DNA of 64,000 nt, from positions 47,130 through 111,129 of the forward strand of contig CAZWSR010000002.1 of the NCBI GenBank assembly GCA_964636545.1. The letters run 5' to 3'. How positions within the stretch are numbered: position 1 is the first letter of the stretch; each line of letters begins with the position of its first letter. Source of the stretch: Candidatus Undinarchaeota archaeon. Its GTDB lineage: Archaea > Undinarchaeota > Undinarchaeia > Undinarchaeales > UBA543. The notes below the pieces were generated by a model. The model saw nothing but the letters and a program-made list of their open reading frames with translations, was not told where the DNA came from and ran no database searches. Both the position numbers and the translations under genes were made by a program. This document shows, piece by piece, positions 6,138-39,616 of the stretch.

Positions 6138-7298
6138 TTACTTTAACCAGCGCATTATCAAATAAGTCCAGATAAACCAAAGCATATGTTGGTCAAAACC
6201 AGTTTCAATCCAGACAATGCTGAGGGCAAGTAAAACAGGATAGAAAACGCGCATTAGCGACTCTTTTTTCTCAATAGAAATGTAGGCGTTTCCTAAAATA
6301 ACGCCGAGGAAAAACATCCAAGTTAATGCAAAAATTGGACCAAATTCCATTAATGGCGGACCAAGCATTGTTGAAGTAAGAGAATTTTCAGCACCTAAGA
6401 ACTCACCAAGATAGTCACGTGGTTGTGCGTGGTTGAGTAGGAACTTGCCGTGCTCTACTCCGAAAGGCATGCTCTGATCTAAAACTTGATCATAAACATT
6501 GTAAGTTGTGCTTGAGCGCCAGAGGAAAAGGGTTGCAGGATTAGCGAGGCCAGCGACAAAGTAGCCGAGGAAAAGAACAAGGAGAACTGCTGTTGCAAGG
6601 GGAATTAGAACAGTTTTGTTATCTAGTTTTTTTGACTTATATGCTGCAATTGTTCCAGACAAAAGCACAAGCAAGAGGGCAAATCGGAAACCAGTGAGGG
6701 CAAATAAAACTGTGCTGACAAGTATAATCAAATATGCTTGTTTGCGTTCTTTCACATTCATAATCAGCCCGACAGAACCAAACATATAGAAGAAAATAGC
6801 AGGAGCCCAAGCCCAAGAAGTATCGAGATTAAACCGAAGTGCTTTGTCAAGTAGAGGGATGCCTCCGACTTGGAAAAATGTGATGACTAGGAAAAAGAAA
6901 CCAAGAGACATTAAAGCCTTGTAAAATTTGAGTGTCGGACGCTGCCATTTTGAAATTAATTTGAATCCTTTGAAAGCTATAGCTAAGATAATTGCAGTTG
7001 CGAATAAACTAATTTCCCAAGAGAGATTGAAAAAGTTTGAGACAACACTTGAATAATAGAGTGTTAAGAGAAGTAAAAATGCCAGAGGCAAATATTCATT
7101 TACTTTTTTTAGTTTGAATTTTTTAGAAAAGCGAACACCCACGTAGTAGAAAGAAAGGGAGAGAAGCACAAACAAGATGCTGAATGTTGAGGGTCTTGTT
7201 AGGTTTTTCCAGTAAAGGAAACCAATACCAGCAGTTAGTAAGAAAAAGAAAAATATTGCAATAAAGGATTCTGGTCGGAAGATATCTATTTTCTTCAT
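6138..7298 (-). CDS. Oligosaccharide repeat-unit polymerase (Wzy-like) membrane protein
   Basis: About 11 TM helices; GGIPL, LTGFR, LTSTMLGP..EFG and WIETG motifs; lies in a glycosylation cluster. Confidence 0.7.
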   Translation of the reverse strand: MKKIDIFRPESFIAIFFFFLLTAGIGFLYWKNLTRPSTFSILFVLLSLSFYYVGVRFSKKFKLKKVNEYLPLAFLLLLTLYYSSVVSNFFNLSWEISLFATAIILAIAFKGFKLISKWQRPTLKFYKALMSLGFFFLVITFFQVGGIPLLDKALRFNLDTSWAWAPAIFFYMFGSVGLIMNVKERKQAYLIILVSTVLFALTGFRFALLLVLLSGTIAAYKSKKLDNKTVLIPLATAVLLVLFLGYFVAGLANPATLFLWRSSTTYNVYDQVLDQSMPFGVEHGKFLLNHAQPRDYLGEFLGAENSLTSTMLGPPLMEFGPIFALTWMFFLGVILGNAYISIEKKESLMRVFYPVLLALSIVWIETGFDQHMLWFIWTYLIMRWLK

Positions 7299-10472: not shown

Positions 10473-10498
10473 ATTATTTACCATATAGTAAATAAATA
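10472..10498 (+). promoter_or_regulatory. 27-bp near-palindromic site, copy 1 (AATTATTTACCATATAGTAAATAAATA)
   Basis: Identical to 12622-12648; ends on the A of the downstream ATG. Confidence 0.75.
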
Positions 10499-10854
10499 TG
10501 GTAAAAACAGTACAAAAAGGTCGGGGACGGCCTGTAAAATCACTAATACGCGACCGCATGCAACAGATTGTAGATGCGCTAGGCAAGGCCTATGGTTATG
10601 AAGTTTACAAAGTTTACAACCAAGTTTTTGAGCCAGTTTGTATTCGCTCAATGTATTATCACCTCAAACGCGGTTGTGAATTGGGTGAATTTGCTGAAGC
10701 AGGGCAGAAGCAAGAGAAAGGGCCATACACCTGGGGCAGAGAGAGCACACACATCTACTATTCGCTTGGAGAAGCAGCAAGCCATAAGGCAAATAACGAC
10801 TTGCAAGAACAAGTTAAGAAGCTAGGATTTTCCGTGAGAGAAGTGAAGAAGTAA
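10498..10854 (+). CDS. Small winged-helix (PadR-like) DNA-binding protein near the origin
   Basis: GRGRP N-terminal basic motif; AYGYEVYKVY...IRSMYYHLKRG...YYSLG wHTH pattern. Confidence 0.75.
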   Translation: MVKTVQKGRGRPVKSLIRDRMQQIVDALGKAYGYEVYKVYNQVFEPVCIRSMYYHLKRGCELGEFAEAGQKQEKGPYTWGRESTHIYYSLGEAASHKANNDLQEQVKKLGFSVREVKK

Positions 10855-11321
10855 TGACAAAAATTAAAAAAATAACAAGAGAGGAATTTGTATATATGTG
10901 GTTAAGTGCTAGCGTAGAAATTTATGGTTCTATTGAAAATGTGATGGAAGAAATAAACAAAAAATTGGACAAAAAAAACAGAGGAATGCGTAGGTGTTTT
11001 ATTTTTCTTGCAAGTAGATGGGAAGGTATAGATGGTGTTATAGAGTTTCTGATAGAAAACAACCTTAGGTTTATAGATGATTATACTATGAATGACCTAT
11101 TTGATTGTTGTGACTATATGCTTAAAGATATTGATAAATTAAAAAAAGGGTATGAAACGTATTTGAAAATATTAAAAGAAAAAAAACAAATAGAGAAAAT
11201 AGAGGAAGTGATTGAAGAAATTAAAAAAGAGATTGAGATGCATCAGAATTTTAGTGAAAAAAAGGTTGATCGCGTTATAGAAAAAATGAAGGAAGAAACA
11301 AAGAGAAGGTTGGGGGGTTGA
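10854..11321 (+). CDS. Low-GC hypothetical protein
   Basis: ORF translationally coupled to the previous gene; K/E-rich. Confidence 0.6.
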   Translation: MTKIKKITREEFVYMWLSASVEIYGSIENVMEEINKKLDKKNRGMRRCFIFLASRWEGIDGVIEFLIENNLRFIDDYTMNDLFDCCDYMLKDIDKLKKGYETYLKILKEKKQIEKIEEVIEEIKKEIEMHQNFSEKKVDRVIEKMKEETKRRLGG

Positions 11322-11326
11322 AGAAA

Positions 11327-12106
11327 ATGAGTGATAGACGAAAAGTAACTCCAAATTTTTATGCAATGGTTTTACTACTTAGTTGTTTGAATGAGGTTGA
11401 GAATGTGCAAGCCATGAGTATAGCACTAGATATGTTGTTTATTGATGTTGAAAAAAAAGAAAACGGGAATGTTTTTCTAAAGGGGTTATTTAATATTACA
11501 AATGAAAAAGAGTTTGAAAAACAAACAAAAAAACTTAATTACTTAGTTACAGGAGAAAAACCAAAAAAAGCAACAGCCGCTGCCCTTACTGTGTTTTTAA
11601 ATGATTGGAGAGAAACCAAAAAAGATATGGTATCGGCGTTGAAAGGTATTAAAAAACAAAGTAAAAAAACACAACGTAAAGATAAAAAAACATTAAAAAT
11701 TCGGGTGTTGCACACCCCAAATCAAGCTGCAAGAATTTTGTTGTTGTCTTGGTTAACACACGACAATAGAATAGAAGAGAATTTAGAGGTTATGAAAAAT
11801 GTTATTTTGCCATTCAAAGGTATAGCTGCTGGATATCTTTTTTTAGGAATAGTATACAAGGTTTCTAGTGAAGAGAATTTTAGAGAAATAATAATAGAAC
11901 GTACAAGATTGGGTATCTCTTATGAAAACCCATATAAAAAAACAGCAAAGGCACTTGGAACTTTGTTTGGTGATGAAGAAGAAGTTGAAAAACTCATTTT
12001 GGCTTGGGGAAATTTATTAGAAAAAAAGAAAGGAACGGTGGAACTTCCAGGATCAAAAGAGGGTATTGAAGAAACTATAGTTGATGTTCAAAAAGTGATT
12101 GATTGA
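11327..12106 (+). CDS. Low-GC hypothetical protein with a weak internal duplication
   Basis: ORF; repeated segments (LLLSCL...FLKGLFNITNEKEF...KKATAAAL / LLLSWL...FLGIVYKVSSEENF...KKTAKAL). Confidence 0.6.
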   Translation: MSDRRKVTPNFYAMVLLLSCLNEVENVQAMSIALDMLFIDVEKKENGNVFLKGLFNITNEKEFEKQTKKLNYLVTGEKPKKATAAALTVFLNDWRETKKDMVSALKGIKKQSKKTQRKDKKTLKIRVLHTPNQAARILLLSWLTHDNRIEENLEVMKNVILPFKGIAAGYLFLGIVYKVSSEENFREIIIERTRLGISYENPYKKTAKALGTLFGDEEEVEKLILAWGNLLEKKKGTVELPGSKEGIEETIVDVQKVID

Positions 12107-12221
12107 GGGGTTGGCTCAAGTAATAAAAGAATTAAAATTGAGTATGGTTAGTAAGAAAGAGTGAAAGAAGATAAAAAAAGATAAGTATTTATGTTATAAA
12201 AAAGAATTGTGTTTGATAAAA

Positions 12222-12584
12222 ATGACTAAAAAAAACATTGATGTTTTAAAAAAGGGGGCACAAAATGAAGATATTGCTTTTGAATTAATAAATAATTGGG
12301 TTTCAAAATCGCGGGGTTTTGGGGAGAAATATGTAGATTTAAAGATTTATGTTTTGGAAAAAATGATGAAAAAGTGTGTAGAAGATGATTTGGGTCCGAC
12401 TTTTATGCATTTTTGTTATGATATTACAATAAACCAAACTAAAGAATTTATAGATCTTGTAAAACAATTGGGTTATTTAGTAGAAAAAGAACAAACTATT
12501 TTAATATTTGATGAAATTGGAAAGTGGTTTAATTATTGGAGTAATTTAGAAAGATATCTAAAACGTGGATATCAACATAGATAA
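12222..12584 (+). CDS. Low-GC hypothetical protein
   Basis: ORF; probable start ATG 12222. Confidence 0.55.
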   Translation: MTKKNIDVLKKGAQNEDIAFELINNWVSKSRGFGEKYVDLKIYVLEKMMKKCVEDDLGPTFMHFCYDITINQTKEFIDLVKQLGYLVEKEQTILIFDEIGKWFNYWSNLERYLKRGYQHR

Positions 12585-12621
12585 AAATTATTCAAAAATT
12601 AATAATTTTTTAAAATTAGTG

Positions 12622-12648
12622 AATTATTTACCATATAGTAAATAAATA
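12622..12648 (+). repeat. 27-bp near-palindromic site, copy 2
   Basis: Identical to 10472-10498. Confidence 0.85.
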
Positions 12649-13074: not shown

Positions 13075-13167
13075 AGTTACTGGTTTTGTTATTTCACTGA
13101 AAAACGAATATTTTTCTGTTCTTTTTCTTTTCCTCTTTTTTACCCACTACCCACTACCTACTACCAA

Positions 13168-13189
13168 CCACCTTTATTTCCTCTGGAAC
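13168..13189 (-). promoter_or_regulatory. ORB box
   Basis: Reverse complement GTTCCAGAGGAAATAAAGGTGG, close to the canonical GTTCCAGTGGAAAC..AGGGG. Confidence 0.85.
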
Positions 13190-34624: not shown

Positions 34625-35197
34625 ATGACTTCCTTGCTTGAAAAAGAATTAGAATTCATTAAAAGTATAGATTGGTTACAATCAATTAAACTTCGTCCAA
34701 GTATTGAGGGAAAGGTTTGGAGGCATGCTGCCAAATTTTTTGACTTGCTGGAATTGAAGAAGCAATGGGGCCGCCCACTATTTTCAATAAATTTATATAG
34801 ATTCACCTGGGAAGAGCTTAAGAAACCTGACGACGATCCAGCTTTCTTCAAAAGAGACATTGAGGGGATTAATAATATTCGCAAGCGAACCGGCTTTAAT
34901 GTTGCTGTTCCACAGAATAAGATGTATATTGTTAGGAAGGCTCAGCAGTCTGCTGCAAAGAAATTGTCTAAATACAAACATATTCTTGGGAAAGAGTATA
35001 AATACCTATTAAAAACTGCTTTTTTTGATATTCATGGTGCGATTGCTTGCGCTTTTTACGAAATTCCTCAATTAAAAAACCCATTCCACCAATTTCTATC
35101 TATTTGGAAATTCGGTTTTTATCCAGTTGGGCCAGTTTATCAGACAATTTCTCCTCGTAAATTAAATATGTTTTTTTATTTTGTTCCTAAAAAGTAA
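34625..35197 (+). CDS. Hypothetical protein
   Basis: 190-aa ORF ending NPF...IWKFGFYPVG. Confidence 0.65.
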   Translation: MTSLLEKELEFIKSIDWLQSIKLRPSIEGKVWRHAAKFFDLLELKKQWGRPLFSINLYRFTWEELKKPDDDPAFFKRDIEGINNIRKRTGFNVAVPQNKMYIVRKAQQSAAKKLSKYKHILGKEYKYLLKTAFFDIHGAIACAFYEIPQLKNPFHQFLSIWKFGFYPVGPVYQTISPRKLNMFFYFVPKK

Positions 35198-35217
35198 TTT
35201 TTAATCAAAAATCACCC

Positions 35218-35236
35218 TGTCTATACACCTGTATAG
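35218..35236 (+). repeat. Left 19-bp inverted repeat TGTCTATACACCTGTATAG
   Basis: Exact reverse complement at 38880-38898. Confidence 0.9.
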
Positions 35237-35337
35237 GTGGTGGGTTGTGGGTAGTAGGTAGTGGGTAGTGGCAAGAATTAAAGAGTAGAGAATCACGCCT
35301 CAGCATACTGGTTTTTAATCGCGGTTATGTAATCTCT

Positions 35338-35364
35338 TATTTATTATCTATATGGTAAATAATT
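35338..35364 (-). repeat. 27-bp near-palindromic site, copy 4
   Basis: Reverse complement AATTATTTACCATATAGATAATAAATA, 25/27 identical to copies 1 and 2. Confidence 0.85.
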
Positions 35365-35397
35365 GTAATACTTTTGAATTCTGCCTTATTTCCCACA

Positions 35398-35835
35398 CTC
35401 ACAAATTTATACTTGATTCTAAACTCTAAATTCCAAACTCCAAACTCCATTCTACTTCTCACAAACTGGATTTTTACGAACAAACTCAGACCCCTGTCCT
35501 TTTCATATCTCACAAATAACCCCGAAACAGCTATATAGCTCCAGGCTATACTGATATATCTCACAAAGCGCCGGTAGTTTAGCCTGGTATGACCCGAGCT
35601 TCCCAAGCTCGAAACTCGAGTTCAAATCTCGGCCGGCGCACTCTCACAATCCTTATTTCTTACCCTCATAGCACACCATATTGGTGTGAAAATAACTCTC
35701 ACAAACGAACATTTCAGTTATTTTTCGGTATGGCGCATGCTATCGGTTTCTGAAAAACGTTGTTTTAATGTATTAAACGTATCTGATCACAGCTAAAACC
35801 TATATCCTCAACAATATAAATTATAGGTCTCACAA
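35398..35835 (+). repeat. CTCACAA array, left arm (7 copies)
   Basis: Copies at 35398, 35458, 35509, 35560, 35643, 35698, 35829. Confidence 0.85.
35568..35640 (+). tRNA. tRNA-Gly(CCC)
   Basis: Acceptor GCGCCGG/CCGGCGC; anticodon arm CGAGC-TTCCCAA-GCTCG; T loop TTCAAAT. Confidence 0.95.
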
Positions 35836-36133
35836 CCAACTCCCCCAATACCTGACAAATGTCATGTTTACCATAAAACACCACATTTTGCTCCAAAAAC
35901 CACCCTTTTTCTCACTTTTCTTGTATTTTCCTCATTTTTCCTGTATTTTCCCCAAATCTCACTAAACTCCACCACATTAGTGACAAACGTCACTCTTTAG
36001 GTATTTTTTTCTCCTACTGCCCAGTGCCCACTACCTACTGCCAACATTTCCTCTATTATCGCAACGTTTTCCTACAAAAACCAATAACAACAAAAATGTC
36101 AGGTCATCAAACCGCTAACAAGAAATATGTCAT

Positions 36134-36259
36134 CTTACATATCTTACACATTTTAGTGACATATAGACCCTTTGCCCTACAAAAAAAACCGATAGCAAGA
36201 GAACAACACCGATAGCAGTAAACTGTCCGATATGTAAGCTTACATATCTTACACATTTT
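36134..36259 (+). repeat. 21-bp direct repeat CTTACATATCTTACACATTTT (36134, 36239) enclosing two ACCGATAGCA copies (36188, 36208)
   Basis: Exact matches read from the sequence. Confidence 0.85.
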
Positions 36260-36297
36260 TCGAAAGGTTTATAAAGGATAAACCACTACCCCTCGGT

Positions 36298-36846
36298 ATG
36301 AAACTATTCTCTTTTTTCAAGAAAAAAGCCAAAAATGTGTCCGATATGTCAGGTGAAGTGTCAGATGACACATCAGATATGTCAGATGACAAATCTTACA
36401 CTTCAGAAGTGACAAATGCCACTGTTTCACGCGAAGATCCGCTTTTTTCCATTTCCAGACAATTAACTCAGGTTCAATACGAATTACGTGAAATTAAACC
36501 ACTAATCGAGTCCAGTACTCAAAGTTTACGAGAAGATCACTATCGATTACTTGAAGAACAAGCAAAAAGTGTTGAAGAATACAAAAAACACCTCTCATAC
36601 AAGCGCGAAAACCTGAAGCAAGCGAAGGATAAGGTCGAAAAAGAGCTCAAACATGTTGAAGTTGATGCCAAAATCTTAGATCATGTTTCAATTGCTCCAA
36701 AACGTACTATTGAAATTTCTGAAGATTTGAAAATTAGTCGTGGTTACGCTGCTGAACGAATAAAAGCTTTGCTTGAAGCAGGGCAAATTACTCGCTTCAA
36801 ACAAGGTCGAAAAGCATATTATAGAATTCCAAAACCAGAAAATTAG
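36298..36846 (+). CDS. Coiled-coil protein with C-terminal winged helix
   Basis: S/D/T-rich N-terminus, heptad region, TIEISEDLKISRGYAAERIKALLEAGQITRFKQGRKAYY wHTH. Confidence 0.8.
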   Translation: MKLFSFFKKKAKNVSDMSGEVSDDTSDMSDDKSYTSEVTNATVSREDPLFSISRQLTQVQYELREIKPLIESSTQSLREDHYRLLEEQAKSVEEYKKHLSYKRENLKQAKDKVEKELKHVEVDAKILDHVSIAPKRTIEISEDLKISRGYAAERIKALLEAGQITRFKQGRKAYYRIPKPEN

Positions 36847-36854
36847 GTCGCTTA

Positions 36855-36962
36855 CTACTTCTTTTGTCTCTCTGCCTTAGCCTTTCTTTTACGTGTTCTT
36901 TTCTTCTTAGTTCGCCTACGCATACTACCCTTCTTCTTCATTTTGTTAGGTGCCATCTTCAT
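36855..36962 (-). CDS. rpl41e: Probable ribosomal protein eL41/eS32-like small basic protein
   Basis: MKMAPNKMKKKGSMRRRTKKKRTRKRK resembles the archaeal L41e pattern KKKGxMRxxxxKKRxR; TATA-like TTTATAAA upstream. Confidence 0.55.
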   Translation of the reverse strand: MKMAPNKMKKKGSMRRRTKKKRTRKRKAKAERQKK

Positions 36963-37041
36963 AGTGGCTTCTTGTTGAGACAACTGGTTTATAAAACTTC
37001 CTATATTCTTTAGTACAATAAATTTAATTCTCACAAACTCC

Positions 37042-37148
37042 GCCTTGCCGCGGACAATGTGCAGGCATTGAAGTTGGTTACTGCACAAGTCTCAAACCTT
37101 CGGTTTGAGAGGATGGCATGAGGGCATTCACGCTTCGCGTGAAGCCCT
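37042..37148. other. Cluster of three GC-rich hairpins (candidate structured RNA or ssDNA signal)
   Basis: TGTGCAG/CTGCACA; TCTCAAACC-TTC-GGTTTGAGA; AGGGC(A)TTCACGC-TTC-GCGTGAAGCCCT. Confidence 0.65.
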
Positions 37149-37171
37149 GTCTTGAAATTGGTTCGTTCTAC

Positions 37172-37765
37172 TTAGTCGCTTCCTCTCGCTTTTGCAGTCT
37201 GAACCAATGAATTATACTCATTAGCAATATGCTCCCAAAACTTACTAAACTGCGTACTTGGTCTCACAATTTTCTTGTAATATTTCTGTTTTGAATGTTC
37301 ATGATGGAATTCTTCACGCTCTAATCTTACCATCCCAACTCTCCTCAATCTGGGCAAGATCACGTTGTAAAACGTAGCTTTTGAGAACCCTTTCTCTCGA
37401 ATAAACGCCCCAATCTCGTCTCCTTTCAATACCTGTCTCTCAAATAACCTATTCATAAACTCTAGGGCTGTCAAGTGGTACTTTTGCTGATATTTTGGAG
37501 GAAAAACCAGCTCTAGTATCTGGTTTAGCTCAACCCTCACATTCTTATGATATGCCCAATCTGACCTCAATCTTTTAACATCATCAAACCACATTGACTC
37601 TTTGCTTGGCACACCTCGACTTGCAGGTCCCCTCGCTGAAAAAGTTGGTTTTTTGCCTTCATCTCTCTCCACAACTTGCACAACCTCGGATGCATATTCA
37701 ATATCATTATGGTGTTTTTGGTCCATAGTCGCCGGTATGCTATCTTGGTATTTAAAACTTACCAT
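37172..37765 (-). CDS. Conserved-looking winged-helix protein
   Basis: EIGAFIREKGFSKATFYNVILPRLRRVGMVRLERE HTH-wing pattern. Confidence 0.75.
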   Translation of the reverse strand: MVSFKYQDSIPATMDQKHHNDIEYASEVVQVVERDEGKKPTFSARGPASRGVPSKESMWFDDVKRLRSDWAYHKNVRVELNQILELVFPPKYQQKYHLTALEFMNRLFERQVLKGDEIGAFIREKGFSKATFYNVILPRLRRVGMVRLEREEFHHEHSKQKYYKKIVRPSTQFSKFWEHIANEYNSLVQTAKARGSD

Positions 37766-37990
37766 TATGGTAAACTCTGGGCCAAGTAAGAAATTAAAAA
37801 ATCGTCTTCCGGTCTAGTGTAATGGTGTGATATCACTTTTTTGGTTGACAGGGGCTAGGGTATGCGATTAAACAAGTATTTTTTATGAAAACTTAGCAAA
37901 AAACCTGATCCCAGTTTATCATAATGGTGTTATTCCACTATTTCCTAAAATCAAATTTCTACAACTTCAAAATAACACCACAATGGTGTT

Positions 37991-38302
37991 TTACTCACTT
38001 TCTGGAATATTTTCTTCAGTTCTTTGCGCTAAACTCTTGAAAAGCAAATTTTCAAAGTCATTTGCCAGTGCATTTCCAGCTTCAGTCAAACTTATGTATT
38101 TTACACGGCCATCCCTGTTAAATTCAACAAGTTTGTGATCTTGCATCTTTTGTAGCAATTTTACAGTGTGTGCGTACGTACAATCTATTCTTTTTGCTAA
38201 ATTTGATGCATATGCCTCTGGATGTGCCTGTTTGATGTGTACAAGCAGTCTAGCTGGCTTTTTTCTAAGAAACATCTCTTCTAATTCAATATTTGTTTTC
38301 AT
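37991..38302 (-). CDS. MarR-like winged-helix regulator
   Basis: YASNLAKRIDCTYAHTVKLL...LVEFNRDGRVKYISLTEAG; start ATG 38302 after a GGGG RBS. Confidence 0.85.
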   Translation of the reverse strand: MKTNIELEEMFLRKKPARLLVHIKQAHPEAYASNLAKRIDCTYAHTVKLLQKMQDHKLVEFNRDGRVKYISLTEAGNALANDFENLLFKSLAQRTEENIPESE

Positions 38303-38487
38303 AATTTTACCCCCTGATGAACAACATCTCAAAAGTGAGAGTTGTCTTTTCTATCTTCCAACACAAGTTTTGGAATTATAAGTATTGTAATGTATCTTTA
38401 GTATTTATTCTTTTTCCAGTGACAATTGTCAGCAAATATCAAAACCGATAGCAAGCGAACCGTTCAATTTATTACCCAAAATCTCGT

Positions 38488-38739
38488 TTGTGAGAGTTAG
38501 CTCATGTGTTAAAGTGTTTTTGAAAAATGTGAGACCGAAAAAATAGGTCTAACATTTTTGTGAGGGGCATCGGAGCATCGTAAATTCGTAGAGCCGGGGC
38601 GCCGGGGCGACGTAAAGTGGTTTTGTGAGTGAAAAACCAATTTGTGAGAGTTTGTGCAGAACCAAAATACAACAAATCAAAAAGTTAGATCAAAAACATG
38701 CATTTGTAAGTGCTAAAAACTCTAAAATATTTTTGTGAG
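38488..38739 (-). repeat. CTCACAA array, right arm (reads TTGTGAG on +; 5 copies plus 1 variant)
   Basis: TTGTGAG at 38488, 38558, 38623, 38642, 38733; ATGTGAG at 38527. Confidence 0.85.
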
Positions 38740-38879
38740 GATTAGAAAATGGTTGGTGGTTGGTAGTTTGTGGTTGGTTGATGAACTAAAAAATACACAA
38801 ACTAAAACCCAAAAACCAATATGTTGCGCACCAGTTTAGTTTTTCATTCTACCCACCACCCACAACCAACTACCTACTA

Positions 38880-38898
38880 CTATACAGGTGTATAGACA
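38880..38898 (-). repeat. Right 19-bp inverted repeat
   Basis: CTATACAGGTGTATAGACA, the reverse complement of 35218-35236. Confidence 0.9.
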
Positions 38899-38992
38899 CC
38901 ATTTATTTTCAAGCCATTTTTCATAATAACTAAAAACCGCCATCTAGCACCTAACCAATAACCTTAAAAGCCACCAGCCATTATTACAAATC

Positions 38993-39616
38993 ATGCCTAA
39001 TCCACAGCTATTAGCTTACGTGCGCCAGAACCTCCAACTCAACTATTCTGAAGAACAAATACGCAATGCCCTAATCACTGCTGGCTACAATATGCGCGAT
39101 ATTGATGATGCACTTGATTCTGTTCTGCATCCCCAAGATCTTGCTCAAGTTCAACAAGCTCAACCACAAAAACCAGAAGCAGTCGCCCAACAAAACTTTC
39201 TCCACAAAATCCCAACCTGGATGATTGGCGCCGCTGTTGGCGGAATTTTCCTACTTGTTGTAATCATAATTCTTCTCATTCCAAGCGGAGATGCTCCCTC
39301 TGGTCTTCTTTCAGAAAATGGAATCAAAGTTTCCGCATACGACTTTGCTTGCGCAGGTCCTGGATCAACATTGACAATCACAATCAACAACGATGGCTTT
39401 GAAACCTTGTCAGATATTCAGCTTTTCGTGGATGACGCCTTTCAACAAGACCAACTCGTTCCATCACTAGAACCAGATGCCTCCGGCACATATTCGTACT
39501 CAGGCATCGATTGCACAGAATGGGTACAAGGGAAAACCATAAAAATCGTTTCTGACAAGGCAGTAGTAGAAGGACCAATCGATTTCAAGTGCACTTCAGG
39601 TGCATGCTCAGGCTAG
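38993..39616 (+). CDS. Single-TM protein with a small N-terminal helical domain and an extracellular Ig/CARDB-like domain
   Basis: LLAYVRQNL...EQIRNALITAGY...IDDA; TM helix; TITINNDG..TLSDI beta-sandwich. Confidence 0.7.
   Translation: MPNPQLLAYVRQNLQLNYSEEQIRNALITAGYNMRDIDDALDSVLHPQDLAQVQQAQPQKPEAVAQQNFLHKIPTWMIGAAVGGIFLLVVIIILLIPSGDAPSGLLSENGIKVSAYDFACAGPGSTLTITINNDGFETLSDIQLFVDDAFQQDQLVPSLEPDASGTYSYSGIDCTEWVQGKTIKIVSDKAVVEGPIDFKCTSGACSG

What the first reader, a model, noticed from the sequence alone, without database searches (positions are those of the whole stretch)
35218..38898. Mirror-symmetric 3.7-kb locus with three winged-helix genes: candidate centromere-like or cell-cycle control hub
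Seen in sequence: the two ends are inverted images of each other. The outer boundary is a perfect 19-bp inverted repeat (35218-35236 / 38880-38898), followed inward by G-rich versus C-rich heptamer tracts and then CTCACAA versus TTGTGAG arrays. Each arm also carries the module TAACTCTCACAAACGA-(29 or 30 bp)-TGCTATCGGTTT (35693-35749; inverted at 38442-38499) and a TGACAA(A/T)TGTCA palindrome (35853 / 38420). Between the motifs the arms are not similar, which points to conserved binding sites rather than a recent duplication. The interior encodes three wHTH proteins (36298, 37172, 37991), tRNA-Gly and an eL41-like ORF. About 1.7 kb of the arms lacks protein-coding genes in an otherwise dense genome. 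The locus is about 22 kb from oriC and shares a 27-bp site with it. Established knowledge: partition sites (bacterial parS, Sulfolobus SegB and AspA sites) are clustered protein-bound repeats, and bacterial parS sites are typically origin-proximal. Inference: this may be an undescribed nucleoprotein hub for segregation, origin licensing or a Cdc6-independent origin. No ParA/SegA ATPase is visible in this window.
Basis: partly seen in the sequence, partly recalled or inferred. Interest (0 to 1): 0.9.

Follow-up and report, generated by a model that had tools for sequence, protein, structure and literature searches.

The report
Mirrored DNA-site arrays around regulator genes
A small marine archaeon keeps a 3.7-kb island in which three DNA-binding protein genes, a ribosomal protein gene and a tRNA gene sit between two non-coding arms packed with the same short sites pointing inward; the layout is real and conserved in relatives, most likely a self-contained gene-control unit, and its exact job is still unknown.

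Summary
The 19-bp inverted repeat, the inward CTCACAA arrays, the CTCACAAACGA-N30-GCTATCGG modules, the TGACAnnTGTCA palindromes, tRNA-Gly(CCC) and the eL41 ORF are all at the stated coordinates. TCTCACA is about 36 times denser here than in other intergenic DNA of this 840-kb Undinarchaeota genome. Contigs from other metagenome runs cross both boundaries.

The gene trio was found in all 9 Undinarchaeales genomes examined. Across their 18 arms TCTCACA points inward 57 times and outward 5 times. G003 (family f2) lacks the arrays.

The G-rich heptamers are a generic genome-wide repeat. The terminal palindrome lies in direct orientation in G004. Origin proximity (12-21 kb from cdc6) is part of a larger conserved syntenic block.

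GC skew turns at cdc6, not at the hub, which argues against an origin or fork trap. I found no recombinase, no transposase, no ParA-type gene in the window, and no plasmid or virus relatives.

My best reading (about 0.45) is a self-contained regulatory island. Two convergent transcription units share one set of binding sites for the island's own winged-helix proteins. A centromere-like or chromosome-organising role (about 0.17) is neither shown nor excluded. The function remains untested.

The parts
35218..35236 (.). Left terminal palindromic box TGTCTATACACCTGTATAG (7-2-7 palindrome CTATACA-CC-TGTATAG)
   Evidence: (I10). It is conserved at both ends in G001 and G002. In G002 the centre is CT on the left and AG on the right. 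In G004 the two copies lie in direct orientation.
35237..35282 (+). G-rich heptamer tract; a generic genome-wide repeat, not specific to the hub
   Evidence: I1, I3. One search finds 12 exact GGTAGTGGGTAG copies genome-wide. The tract is not conserved in G002.
35341..35361 (+). 21-mer TTATTATCTATATGGTAAATA, shared with the cdc6-upstream region
   Evidence: 4 copies with at most 2 mismatches in the genome (window 10475, 12625, 12719, 35341); also present in the G001 hub and origin region, and not found in G002, G004, G005 or G006.
35398..35835 (+). Left array of 7 inward CTCACA(A) sites (35398, 35458, 35509, 35560, 35643, 35698, 35829)
35568..35641 (+). tRNA-Gly(CCC), with a CTCACAA site on each side; a TATA-like box lies 28-29 nt upstream of the 5' site
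35693..35749 (+). Left module TAACTCTCACAAACGA-N30-TGCTATCGGTTT
   Evidence: A third copy of the module lies upstream of the TATA box of a 570-aa secreted-protein gene at G000:C3:31270-31330.
35800..35864 (+). Promoter-like element (CTATAT/ATATAAAT box, then CTCACA) followed by the palindrome TGACAAATGTCA (35853-35864)
   Evidence: Read from the sequence. Conserved in G001 and G002. TATA-like box at -29.
35981..36260 (.). Region upstream of wH1: TGACAAACGTCA, a C-rich heptamer tract (36021-36046), ATATGTCA-type 30-nt repeats, and two CCGATAGCA sites
   Evidence: D1-D3, D6, I6.
36298..36846 (+). wH1: 182 aa, with a variable N-terminus, a coiled coil and a C-terminal winged helix; the family is narrow
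   Evidence: Searches give only weak HTH_24/TrmB/ArsR/Lrs14 hits below cut-offs. One search finds 16 representative clusters. Alignment.
36855..36962 (-). Ribosomal protein eL41/eS32, 35 aa
   Evidence: (G006 orthologue against PDB 6skf_Bk, E 3.3e-8). No Pfam or NCBIfam hit.
37036..37173 (+). GC-rich repeat element with UUCG-capped hairpins, preceded by CTCACAA at 37030
   Evidence: fold z-score -2.41. Other copies are at G000:C1:13175-13314, C1:52846-52911 and C3:22825-22896.
37172..37726 (-). wH2: 184 aa from Met14 (the ORF runs up to 37765); conserved in Undinarchaeota and Micrarchaeota
   Evidence: Model mean pLDDT 70. Only weak Foldseek matches to TFIIE-alpha, PadR, Lrs14 and RTP winged helices.
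37727..37990 (.). wH2-wH3 intergenic region with three CATAATGGTGTT-like repeats and the inverted repeat ACCATTATGGTAAACT
   Evidence: D7, I25. An RNA-library contig covers 37857-38007 at depth 2.
37991..38302 (-). wH3: 103 aa, MarR/ArsR-like winged helix
   Evidence: PF25212 at 27.7 bits (cut-off 27.6) and PF13463 at 24.8 bits (cut-off 22.2); 52 relatives, including one that its source labels Aenigmarchaeota.
38420..38431 (.). Palindrome TGACAATTGTCA
38442..38499 (-). Right module (inverted copy)
38488..38739 (-). Right array of 6 inward CTCACA sites, 5 of them CTCACAA
38835..38880 (+). C-rich heptamer tract (generic repeat)
   Evidence: I1, I3.
38880..38898 (.). Right terminal palindromic box

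Best explanation
The locus is a conserved, self-contained regulatory island of Undinarchaeales (DPANN archaea).

Its core holds wH1 on one strand and eL41, wH2 and wH3 on the other. Each non-coding arm is the long upstream control region of an inward-transcribed winged-helix gene: wH1 on one side, wH3 on the other.

Both arms use the same cis grammar:
- an array of a polar ~10-bp iteron, a.(C/G)T-CTCACA-(A/T)(A/T), always pointing towards the core;
- a CTCACAAACGA-N30-TTGCTATCGGTTTT module;
- TGACAnnTGTCA palindromes close to the promoters;
- in two families, a terminal TATACAnnTGTATA palindrome.

On this reading the mirror symmetry follows from two convergent units sharing one set of protein-binding sites. 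It is not a duplication and not transposon ends.

Inferred steps:
- wH1 binds the TGACA-type palindromes and regulates itself and a few other genes.
- One of the other island proteins (wH2 or wH3) binds the iterons head to tail. This builds an extended complex that sets transcription of the island's genes, including tRNA-Gly(CCC), whose presumed start overlaps an iteron.

Shown: the anatomy, the locus specificity, and conservation of polarity through rearrangements. Not shown: any binding, any transcript map, any phenotype.
For: - Polarity and conservation: TCTCACA points inward 57 times and outward 5 times in 18 arms of 9 genomes, and occurs in 17 of 18 arms. Polarity is kept even though the core is inverted relative to the flanking genes in f2, f3 and f4 compared with f1 and f5.
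- The sites are short stand-alone elements. Information content is confined to about 10 bp. Only 6 of 83 sites have a TATA-like box at -28/-29. Five of these are the tRNA-Gly promoters (G000, G001, G002) and the distal wH1 promoter (G000, G001); the sixth is in G003.
- Sites sit next to promoters outside the hub. The CTCACAA...GCTATCGG module lies just upstream of the TATA box of a secreted-protein gene. G002 has four identical 42-nt CTCACA cassettes outside the hub. Two of them lie about 40 nt upstream of ORFs with a TATA-like box between them.
- TGACAnnTGTCA occurs 7 times in the genome, 2 of them in the hub. Both of the two outside copies I inspected lie at gene starts.
- TGACA-type sites are kept upstream of wH1 even in G003, which lacks the arrays.
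- In G002 the palindromes change to a TGACG type and the wH1 recognition helix differs there. wH1 is 47% identical between G000 and G002, against 86% for wH2 and 76% for wH3.
- The arms do not fold better than shuffled sequence: z +0.28 and -1.05.
- wH3 passes Pfam winged-helix cut-offs.
Against: - No binding or expression data exist. The one RNA library laid on the locus gave only two depth-2 contigs over wH3 and its neighbourhood.
- In G000 the extended iteron has no copy in any other intergenic region: 7 in the hub, 0 in other intergenic DNA, 7 in coding DNA. A factor whose only targets are at its own locus is unusual for a transcription factor and typical of centromere or origin proteins.
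- G003 keeps the trio without arrays, so the arrays are not needed by the genes as such.
- The putative recognition helix of wH2 is invariant even in Micrarchaeota, which show no arrays. wH2 may therefore not be the iteron binder.
- Helical phasing of the sites is only suggestive: R 0.42 at a period of 10.9, and p 0.09 when one genome per genus is used.
Confidence: 0.45

Rival explanations
1. Centromere-like or chromosome-organising hub. An island-encoded winged-helix protein coats the iteron arrays near the replication origin. The complex would be used for segregation, for condensin-type loading, or for looping the two arms together. Autoregulation would be a by-product, as it is in ParR/parC, TubR/tubC, AspA and SegB systems.
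For: - The iterons are essentially locus-specific in G000.
- The hub lies 12-21 kb from the single cdc6 gene in 7 genomes of 3 families (coordinates).
- A 21-mer otherwise confined to the cdc6-upstream region sits in the left arm in G000 and G001.
- The wH2 model is a winged helix with a long C-terminal helix, and PadR-family chains are among its weak structural matches. From memory, AspA has a PadR-like fold.
- Two ParA/MinD-family genes exist elsewhere in the genome, on C5.
- SegB sites cluster near their own operon and SegB loops distant sites together (abstract of PMC12284271).
Against: - There is no NTPase gene in or beside the hub in any locus examined.
- The origin proximity is inherited with a larger syntenic block.
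- The 21-mer link is absent in G002, G004, G005 and G006.
- G003 lacks the arrays.
- G002 carries CTCACA cassettes at ordinary promoters.
- SegB is a ribbon-helix-helix protein that binds palindromes, which is a different fold and site type (passages of PMC8682754).
Confidence: 0.17
2. RNA-level function. The arms would be transcribed inward as long, unstructured, C/A-rich leaders or non-coding RNAs. Their repeated CUCACA motifs would bind or titrate an RNA-binding protein, in the manner of a sponge RNA.
For: - The strict strand polarity of the motif is what an RNA motif would show.
- The arms show no more folding than shuffled sequence. The w32916-side arm (the wH1-side arm in f1 and f5, the wH3-side arm in f3 and f4) is G-poor on its inward strand, with skew from -0.19 to -0.47 in 8 of 9 genomes and -0.14 in G003.
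- A conserved promoter-like element at 35800-35845 points inward.
Against: - In G004 and G003 the tRNA-Gly inside the arm lies antisense to the motif direction.
- The G-poor skew follows the chromosome frame, not the gene it precedes, and the other arm is neutral.
- wH1 has its own TATA box about 25 nt before its ATG (read).
- No RNA contig covers the arms in the one RNA library laid, apart from short matches of 30-36 nt at 90-95% identity on the two heptamer tracts. That library had very low depth.
Confidence: 0.1
3. Relic or domesticated mobile element, or a landing pad for small repeat elements. The terminal inverted repeats and sub-terminal one-way repeats would be former transposon ends, as in Tn7/Mu or CACTA-type elements. 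Alternatively the arms could be accumulated insertion scars.
For: - In the G000 genus there is a 19-20-bp terminal inverted repeat whose centre dinucleotide co-varies at both ends.
- Synteny breaks exactly at the boxes. G000 has an extra 190-aa ORF on the left; G001 and G002 have an extra TPR-rich gene on the right.
- The core has been inverted during evolution.
- A GC-rich repeat element has landed in different places of the hub in G000 and G001.
- A 42-nt CTCACA cassette is present in 4 identical dispersed copies in G002.
Against: - Only one region per genome matched the trio in the genomes searched, and it lies in a conserved neighbourhood across the order.
- It carries core genes, eL41 and tRNA-Gly.
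- No transposase-like ORF lies inside.
- No Resolvase or Phage_integrase match exists in G000, which is 83% complete.
- wH2 has no relatives in IMG/VR, and wH3 has none in PLSDB.
- I see no target-site duplication.
- The boxes are in direct orientation in G004 and absent in f4 and f5.
Confidence: 0.1
4. Replication element: a second origin, or a polar fork barrier or trap with an RTP-like terminator protein.
For: - The arrays consist of opposed polar sites.
- RTP chains appear among the weak structural matches of wH2 (1f4k_A, E 0.023, TM 0.44 normalised to the target).
- One origin-type 21-mer lies in the left arm.
Against: - Cumulative GC skew has its only turning point at about 13 kb next to cdc6 and falls steadily across 35-39 kb.
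- There is no AT-rich unwinding element between the arrays and no initiator gene.
- All Foldseek matches have E above 0.001.
Confidence: 0.05

Closest known systems
Autoregulated MarR/PadR/ArsR/Lrs14-type archaeal regulators with operator sites in their own upstream regions
   Same: - The proteins are small winged-helix proteins.
- Palindromic sites (TGACAnnTGTCA, TATACAnnTGTATA) lie at or near the promoters of the genes that encode them.
- Sites and recognition helix change together in one lineage, G002.
   Different: - Three such genes sit in one island together with eL41 and a tRNA.
- There are also 3-8 one-way 10-bp iterons per arm, reaching 400-900 bp upstream and mirrored on both sides.
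- In G000 these iterons have no other intergenic targets.
Plasmid and archaeal centromeres bound by small site-specific proteins (ParR/parC, TubR/tubC, AspA of pNOB8, SegB S1/S2)
   Same: - Clusters of specific sites lie next to the gene of a small DNA-binding protein.
- The sites are locus-restricted.
- Extended nucleoprotein complexes are expected.
- The location is origin-proximal.
   Different: - No adjacent ParA, ParM, TubZ or SegA gene.
- SegB is a ribbon-helix-helix protein that binds 23-bp palindromes (passages of PMC8682754).
- Here the arrays are polar and mirrored around genes.
- My knowledge of parC, tubC and AspA is recalled, not tested here.
Iteron-type replicons (RepA/RepE/pi): monomers bind direct iterons, dimers bind inverted half-sites
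   Same: The same core motif occurs both as one-way monomer sites and as inverted pairs. Examples are TCTCACA-N3-4-TGTGAGA at the f5 boundaries and TGTGAGgttaacCTCACA in G002.
   Different: - No Rep-like protein with two winged helices.
- No AT-rich unwinding region.
- No skew signal.
- The comparison rests on recalled knowledge.
Tus-Ter and RTP-Ter replication fork traps
   Same: - Polar sites occur in two opposed groups.
- The wH2 model weakly resembles RTP.
   Different: - The locus is 21 kb from cdc6, not at a terminus.
- GC skew does not turn there.
- The structural match is weak (E 0.023).

Membership tests
Partition centromere with its binding protein (parS/ParB, parC/ParR, tubC/TubR, SegB sites, AspA) | Adjacent motor NTPase gene (ParA/SegA, ParM or TubZ) | tested here: not met
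   The ORFs of the hub are wH1, eL41, wH2 and wH3. PF13614 matches in G000 lie only on C5 and C10, not on the window's contig. Of the neighbouring ORFs I scanned, those that matched a Pfam family are unrelated enzymes (SurE, SerRS, peptidase M17); the others, including the X and Y ORFs inside the cluster, matched nothing.
Partition centromere with its binding protein | Clustered specific sites bound by the neighbouring small DNA-binding protein | not testable with these tools
   The sites are clustered and locus-specific. Binding cannot be tested in silico here.
SegAB system | SegB ribbon-helix-helix fold and palindromic S1/S2 sites upstream of segA | tested here: not met
   The hub proteins are winged-helix proteins. 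The main site is a polar, non-palindromic iteron. SegB features were taken from passages of PMC8682754.
Archaeal oriC (ORB elements, Orc1/Cdc6, unwinding element) | Adjacent orc1/cdc6 gene and inverted ORBs flanking a short AT-rich unwinding element | tested here: not met
   The single cdc6 gene lies about 21 kb away. About 2 kb of genes lie between the arrays. The AT-rich (TA)n region with an inverted 21-mer pair is at window 12.6-12.8 kb.
Archaeal oriC | Turning point of strand compositional skew | tested here: not met
   Cumulative GC skew peaks at 12-13 kb and falls steadily through 35-39 kb.
TIR transposon, MITE or casposon | Terminal inverted repeats with a target-site duplication, a transposase, and several or variable copies | tested here: not met
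   The inverted repeat is present in the G000 genus only, and the boxes are direct in G004. No duplication is seen at the flanks. No transposase-like ORF lies inside. The locus is single and syntenic in each genome. DDE transposase families were not searched genome-wide.
Site-specific invertible segment (Hin/Gin or Fim type) | Recombinase gene, and both orientations present in a population | tested here: not met
   G000 (83% complete) has no PF00239 or PF00589 match. No strand-changing joints appear in contigs of X3, X4 and X5, although contigs drop rare variants. Matching centre dinucleotides at the two ends, CC/GG or CT/AG, are present in the G000 genus.
Tus/RTP-Ter fork trap | Location at the replication terminus, and a terminator-protein fold | tested here: not met
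   There is no skew turning point at the hub. RTP matches of wH2 are weak (E 0.023-0.19).
Winged-helix (MarR/ArsR/PadR-like) transcription regulators | Winged-helix DNA-binding domain | tested here: met
   wH3: PF25212 at 27.7 bits against a cut-off of 27.6, and PF13463 at 24.8 against 22.2. wH1: only sub-threshold HTH hits. wH2: the model contains a winged helix, mean pLDDT 70 with blocks of 84-92 over roughly residues 71-140.
Winged-helix transcription regulators | Operators at their own promoters that are bound by the protein | not testable with these tools
   Palindromes lie at promoter-proximal positions and co-vary with the wH1 helix in G002. Binding is untested.
Ribosomal protein eL41/eS32 | Sequence match to solved archaeal L41e chains | tested here: met
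   The G006 orthologue matches 6skf_Bk at E 3.3e-8 over residues 1-34. The G000 ORF belongs to the same conserved set.

The most novel reading that the evidence does not exclude
The island is an origin-proximal, motor-less centromere or chromosome-organising centre of a DPANN archaeon. An island-encoded winged-helix protein would polymerise head to tail on the inward-facing iterons of both arms and pair the arms. The resulting nucleoprotein loop would hold eL41, tRNA-Gly and the regulators, and would mark the origin region for segregation or for loading of condensin-type complexes. This would be an archaeal counterpart of ParB-parS without a ParA partner.
Probability: 0.15. Interest if true: 0.85.

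Novelty: new variant of a known kind. Interest (0 to 1): 0.6.

Why it matters
DPANN archaea have tiny, gene-dense genomes, and almost nothing is known about how they control transcription or organise their chromosome.

This island spends about 1.65 kb of non-coding DNA on ordered, polar sites. That layout has been kept in four of the five Undinarchaeales families I examined, through inversions of the core. It is therefore under selection, and it gives a defined protein-DNA system to test: three small proteins, four or five site types, and one locus.

- If it is a regulatory circuit, it links regulators to a ribosomal protein gene and a rare-codon tRNA.
- If it is a chromosome-organising site, it would be the first such element proposed for DPANN.

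I found no paper that holds both 'Undinarchaeota' and 'origin of replication'. The 129 papers that mention Undinarchaeota were seen only as a listing of eight titles and abstract starts. The claim that this is undescribed therefore rests on those two searches alone.

Tried and rejected
- Rfam: the gathering threshold on the whole window and the E-value mode on 35000-39100 found only the tRNA, plus chance-level hits.
- PHROGs and NCBIfam gave only weak regulator-like hits for the hub proteins. NCBIfam found nothing for the eL41 ORFs.
- wH2 against PDB sequences gave only E of 0.07 or worse. The ESM Atlas named only 'hypothetical' clusters and an AF_0843 lead at 0.91. The gene neighbours of wH2 in Micrarchaeota were uninformative.
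- I considered wH2 as a TFE-alpha substitute and rejected it. A TFIIE_alpha match over Pfam's cut-off lies elsewhere in 11 of the 13 genomes of the order, and wH2 has no zinc ribbon.
- Inversion switch: rejected for lack of a recombinase and of joints.
- CTCACA as a general promoter or initiator element: rejected, because only 6 of 83 sites have a TATA-like box at -28/-29.
- CTCACA as a tRNA-processing signal: rejected, because the tRNA is antisense to the motif in G004 and G003.
- Concerted evolution of the arms: not seen in G000 or G001. In G002 the left/right identity (78.7%) is as high as the orthologous values.
- Helical phasing of the sites: inconclusive.
- RNA library X20: no cover of the arms beyond short heptamer matches, and only two depth-2 contigs over wH3 and the wH2-wH3 spacer. 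This says nothing either way.
- Viral (IMG/VR, wH2) and plasmid (PLSDB, wH3) searches found no relatives. wH1 was not searched there.

Full report
**What the organism is.** The window is G000:C2:47130-111129 of an 840-kb assembly in 39 contigs, 83% complete. Record titles of its closest relatives name Candidatus Undinarchaeota/Undinarchaeales, which are DPANN archaea. Runs that hold the locus are marine and hydrothermal-vent metagenomes.

**Checking the observation.**
- The 19-bp perfect inverted repeat is at 35218-35236 / 38880-38898, and these are its only two copies in the genome.
- CTCACAA occurs 24 times in the window against 13.8 +/- 3.5 expected. Fourteen of the 119 genome copies lie in the locus. 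The left arm holds seven on the + strand and the right arm five on the - strand.
- With a crude ORF mask, TCTCACA has 2.97 copies per kb in the hub, 0.083 in other intergenic DNA and 0.074 in coding DNA. The extended motif [CG]TCTCACA[AT] has 7 copies in the hub, 0 in other intergenic DNA and 7 in coding DNA.
- The modules, the palindromes and tRNA-Gly(CCC) are confirmed.
- The small basic ORF is a true eL41/eS32. The G006 orthologue matches L41E of PDB 6skf at E 3.3e-8, and the ORF is conserved beside wH1 in families f1, f5, f3 and f2.
- Contigs of three other metagenome runs cross both boundaries without differences or joints. X3 and X4 look like one data set.

**Two corrections to the observation.**
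- The G-rich/C-rich heptamers next to the terminal repeat belong to a genome-wide repeat. There are 12 exact copies of GGTAGTGGGTAG, mostly as local hairpins. They are not conserved at this place in G002.
- The site shared with the origin region is a 21-mer, TTATTATCTATATGGTAAATA. It has only four copies with at most 2 mismatches in the genome: three upstream of cdc6 (window 10475, 12625, 12719) and one in the left arm at 35341. The link is also seen in G001 but not in G002, G004, G005 or G006.

**Conservation.**
- The order wH1(+), wH2(-), wH3(-) was found in all nine Undinarchaeales loci examined and in further records.
- In the two same-genus genomes the whole architecture is kept: terminal boxes, inward arrays, modules on both arms, and the tRNA flanked by CTCACAA.
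- In G002 the centre of the terminal box is CT on the left and AG on the right, where G000 and G001 have CC and GG.
- Across nine genomes TCTCACA points inward 57 times and outward 5 times, and occurs in 17 of 18 arms.
- An alignment of 83 CTCACA sites shows information only over about 10 bp: a.(C/G)T-CTCACA-(A/T)(A/T).

**The picture is not uniform.**
- In G004 (f3) the two terminal boxes are in direct orientation, and the tRNA lies in the wH3-side arm pointing outward. That tRNA has two introns by my reading and was missed by ARAGORN.
- In G006 (f5) there is no TATACA box. Instead a TCTCACA-N3-4-TGTGAGA palindrome, followed by about 80 bp, is repeated in direct orientation at both ends.
- In G005 (f4) a comparable TTGTGAG...CTCACA pair lies near the outer end of the wH1-side arm, and I did not look for a direct repeat there.
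- G003 (f2) keeps the trio, eL41, the tRNA and the TGACA palindromes upstream of wH1, but has no arrays.

**Rearrangements.**
- Relative to the conserved flanking genes (w32916 on one side, seryl-tRNA synthetase on the other) the core is inverted in f2, f3 and f4 compared with f1 and f5.
- The tRNA stays on the w32916 side, and the iterons still point inward.
- The strong C-over-G bias of one arm follows the chromosome frame, not the adjacent gene.
- Left and right modules share only their two motif ends. Orthologous modules are more alike than the two modules of one genome in G000 and G001.

**The proteins.**
- wH3 (103 aa) passes Pfam cut-offs for winged-helix families and has 52 relatives in the search, one of which its source labels Aenigmarchaeota.
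- wH1 (182 aa) has a variable N-terminus, a coiled coil and a C-terminal HTH that gives only sub-threshold hits. Its family is narrow: 16 representative clusters among 1.8 billion.
- wH2 (184 aa from Met14) has no Pfam family. It is conserved in Undinarchaeota and, at 32-41% identity, in records labelled Micrarchaeota, with invariant SRG.PS.E and SKAT.YN..LPRL..VGM motifs. Those records show neither the trio nor arrays.
- The wH2 model (mean pLDDT 70) is a winged helix with a long C-terminal helix. Foldseek gives only weak matches, all with E above 0.001, to TFIIE-alpha, PadR/LmrR, Lrs14-type AbfR2 and RTP.
- A TFIIE_alpha match over Pfam's cut-off lies elsewhere in 11 of the 13 genomes of the order.

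**Which site goes with which protein (inference).**
- TGACAnnTGTCA occurs seven times in the genome, two of them in the hub. The two outside copies I inspected lie at the starts of a 929-aa secreted protein and a 151-aa membrane protein.
- Such sites crowd the upstream region of wH1, and even its first codons, in all families including G003.
- In G002 they read TGACG/CGTCA instead. There the wH1 recognition helix differs. wH1 is 47% identical between G000 and G002, against 86% for wH2 and 76% for wH3. I take this as co-evolution of wH1 with its operator.
- The GCTATCGGTTT motif has five genome copies, three of them in the hub. One lies, together with a CTCACAA, just upstream of the TATA box of a 570-aa secreted-protein gene.
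- The wH2-wH3 spacer has its own repeats, CATAATGGTGTT three times plus an inverted repeat.
- I could not assign the iteron binder.

**Tests of the specific functional readings.**

*Origin or fork trap.*
- Cumulative GC skew has one turning point at 12-13 kb beside cdc6, where an AT-rich (TA)n tract and an inverted 21-mer pair lie. It falls steadily across the hub.
- A single Orc1/Cdc6 match was found in 12 of 13 genomes of the order.
- The hub is 12-21 kb from cdc6 in seven genomes, but the whole stretch between them is a conserved syntenic block.

*Mobile element or invertible switch.*
- There is no transposase-like ORF inside, and no Resolvase or Phage_integrase match in G000.
- There are no IMG/VR or PLSDB relatives.
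- The locus is single and syntenic, and no joints appear in the contigs.

*Centromere.*
- There is no ParA-type gene on the window's contig.
- SegB, the known archaeal chromosomal centromere protein, is a ribbon-helix-helix protein that binds palindromes (passages of PMC8682754). Its sites do cluster near its own operon, and it loops DNA (abstract of PMC12284271).

*RNA.*
- The arms fold no better than shuffled sequence: z +0.28 and -1.05.

*Promoter element.*
- Only 6 of 83 sites carry a TATA-like box at -28/-29. Five are the tRNA-Gly promoters of G000, G001 and G002 and a conserved distal promoter about 470 nt upstream of wH1 in G000 and G001; the sixth is in G003.

**A late observation that favours a transcription-factor role for the iteron.**
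- G002 has four identical 42-nt cassettes outside the hub: TGTGAGgttaacCTCACA-N15-CTCACA.
- Two lie about 40 nt upstream of ORFs with a TATA-like box in between. By eye these are a 452-aa beta-CASP-like protein and a 251-aa diphthine-synthase-like protein; neither was scanned.
- One lies directly before a copy of the GC-rich UUCG element, and one has no obvious gene.
- In the G000 hub the same GC-rich element is preceded by CTCACAA at a 3-nt distance. In G001 a degenerate CTCCCAA sits at the same distance.

**Verdict.** The finding is real, conserved and not explained by any described system that I could test.
- The best-supported reading (about 0.45) is a self-contained regulatory island. Its mirror symmetry comes from two convergent units using the same binding-site grammar.
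- A centromere-like or chromosome-organising role (about 0.17) cannot be excluded. It is favoured by the locus-restricted iterons in G000.
- The RNA reading and the mobile-relic reading each get about 0.1, and a replication element about 0.05.
- Nothing about binding, transcription or phenotype has been shown.

Noticed in passing
window 37036-37173; G000:C1:13175-13314 (L013), C1:52846-52911 (L116), C3:22825-22896 (L117); L118-L125 in G001 and G002: This is a GC-rich repeat family of about 70 nt, with a long form of about 135 nt. It has a CCGC...GCGG hairpin and a GGGC-stem-UUCG-stem-GCCC hairpin whose stem differs between copies with paired changes. It ends in GAAATTGGTTCG. There are at least 4 copies in G000 and several in G001 and G002. 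Copies often lie beside tRNA genes. In L121 and L123 the element is preceded by a duplicate of about 25 nt of the neighbouring tRNA's 3' end, like a small tRNA-targeting insertion. There is no Rfam match. Fold z-score is -2.41.
   Followed up: partly
window 13141-13170, 35237-35282, 36021-36046, 38835-38880; G000 C1, C3, C5, C6, C7, C8, C12: Heptamer-periodic G-rich tracts (GGTAGTG / GGCAGTA) are often followed at once by the complementary C-rich tract, forming intergenic hairpins. There are 12 exact copies of GGTAGTGGGTAG in the genome. Their function is unknown. They also caused high-depth stacking of foreign contigs.
   Followed up: partly
window 10474-12645: A 2.15-kb very AT-rich stretch (26-30% GC) carries three odd ORFs. 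It is bounded by identical direct copies of TTATTTACCATATAGTAAATA, directly beside the (TA)n tract upstream of cdc6. It could be an insertion into the origin region or a duplication of an origin box.
   Followed up: no
L019 about 6228-6337 (G004); L011 2529-2624 (G001); L020 4762-4855 (G003): By my reading tRNA-Gly(CCC) carries two introns in G004, and ARAGORN missed it. The 94-96-nt genes that ARAGORN calls in G001 and G003 suggest one intron each. G000 and G002 have none.
   Followed up: partly
G002:C5:9317, C5:41369, C5:55263, C16:1765 (L126-L132): Four identical copies of a 42-nt cassette (an 18-bp perfect palindrome TGTGAGGTTAACCTCACA, 15 nt, then CTCACA) are dispersed in G002. Two are just upstream of TATA-like boxes and ORFs. 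It looks like a recently spread mobile operator or promoter module.
   Followed up: partly
window 34625-35197; L011 6117-7163; L012 6404-7399: Gene content changes exactly at the terminal boxes. G000 has a 190-aa ORF with no family to the left of the hub, which the G001 and G002 loci did not match. G001 and G002 have a 331-348-aa TPR-like, lysine-rich gene to the right, which G000 lacks.
   Followed up: no
L018 3966-4753; L019 4087-4847: In f4 and f3 two further ORFs with no Pfam family (165-171 aa and 88-91 aa) sit between wH1/eL41 and wH2. They are absent from G000.
   Followed up: no
window 35416-35451; G000:C20:2160-2245: Short AAACTCC/AAATTCC-type periodic tracts recur in other intergenic places and gave loose ends in the read laying.
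   Followed up: no
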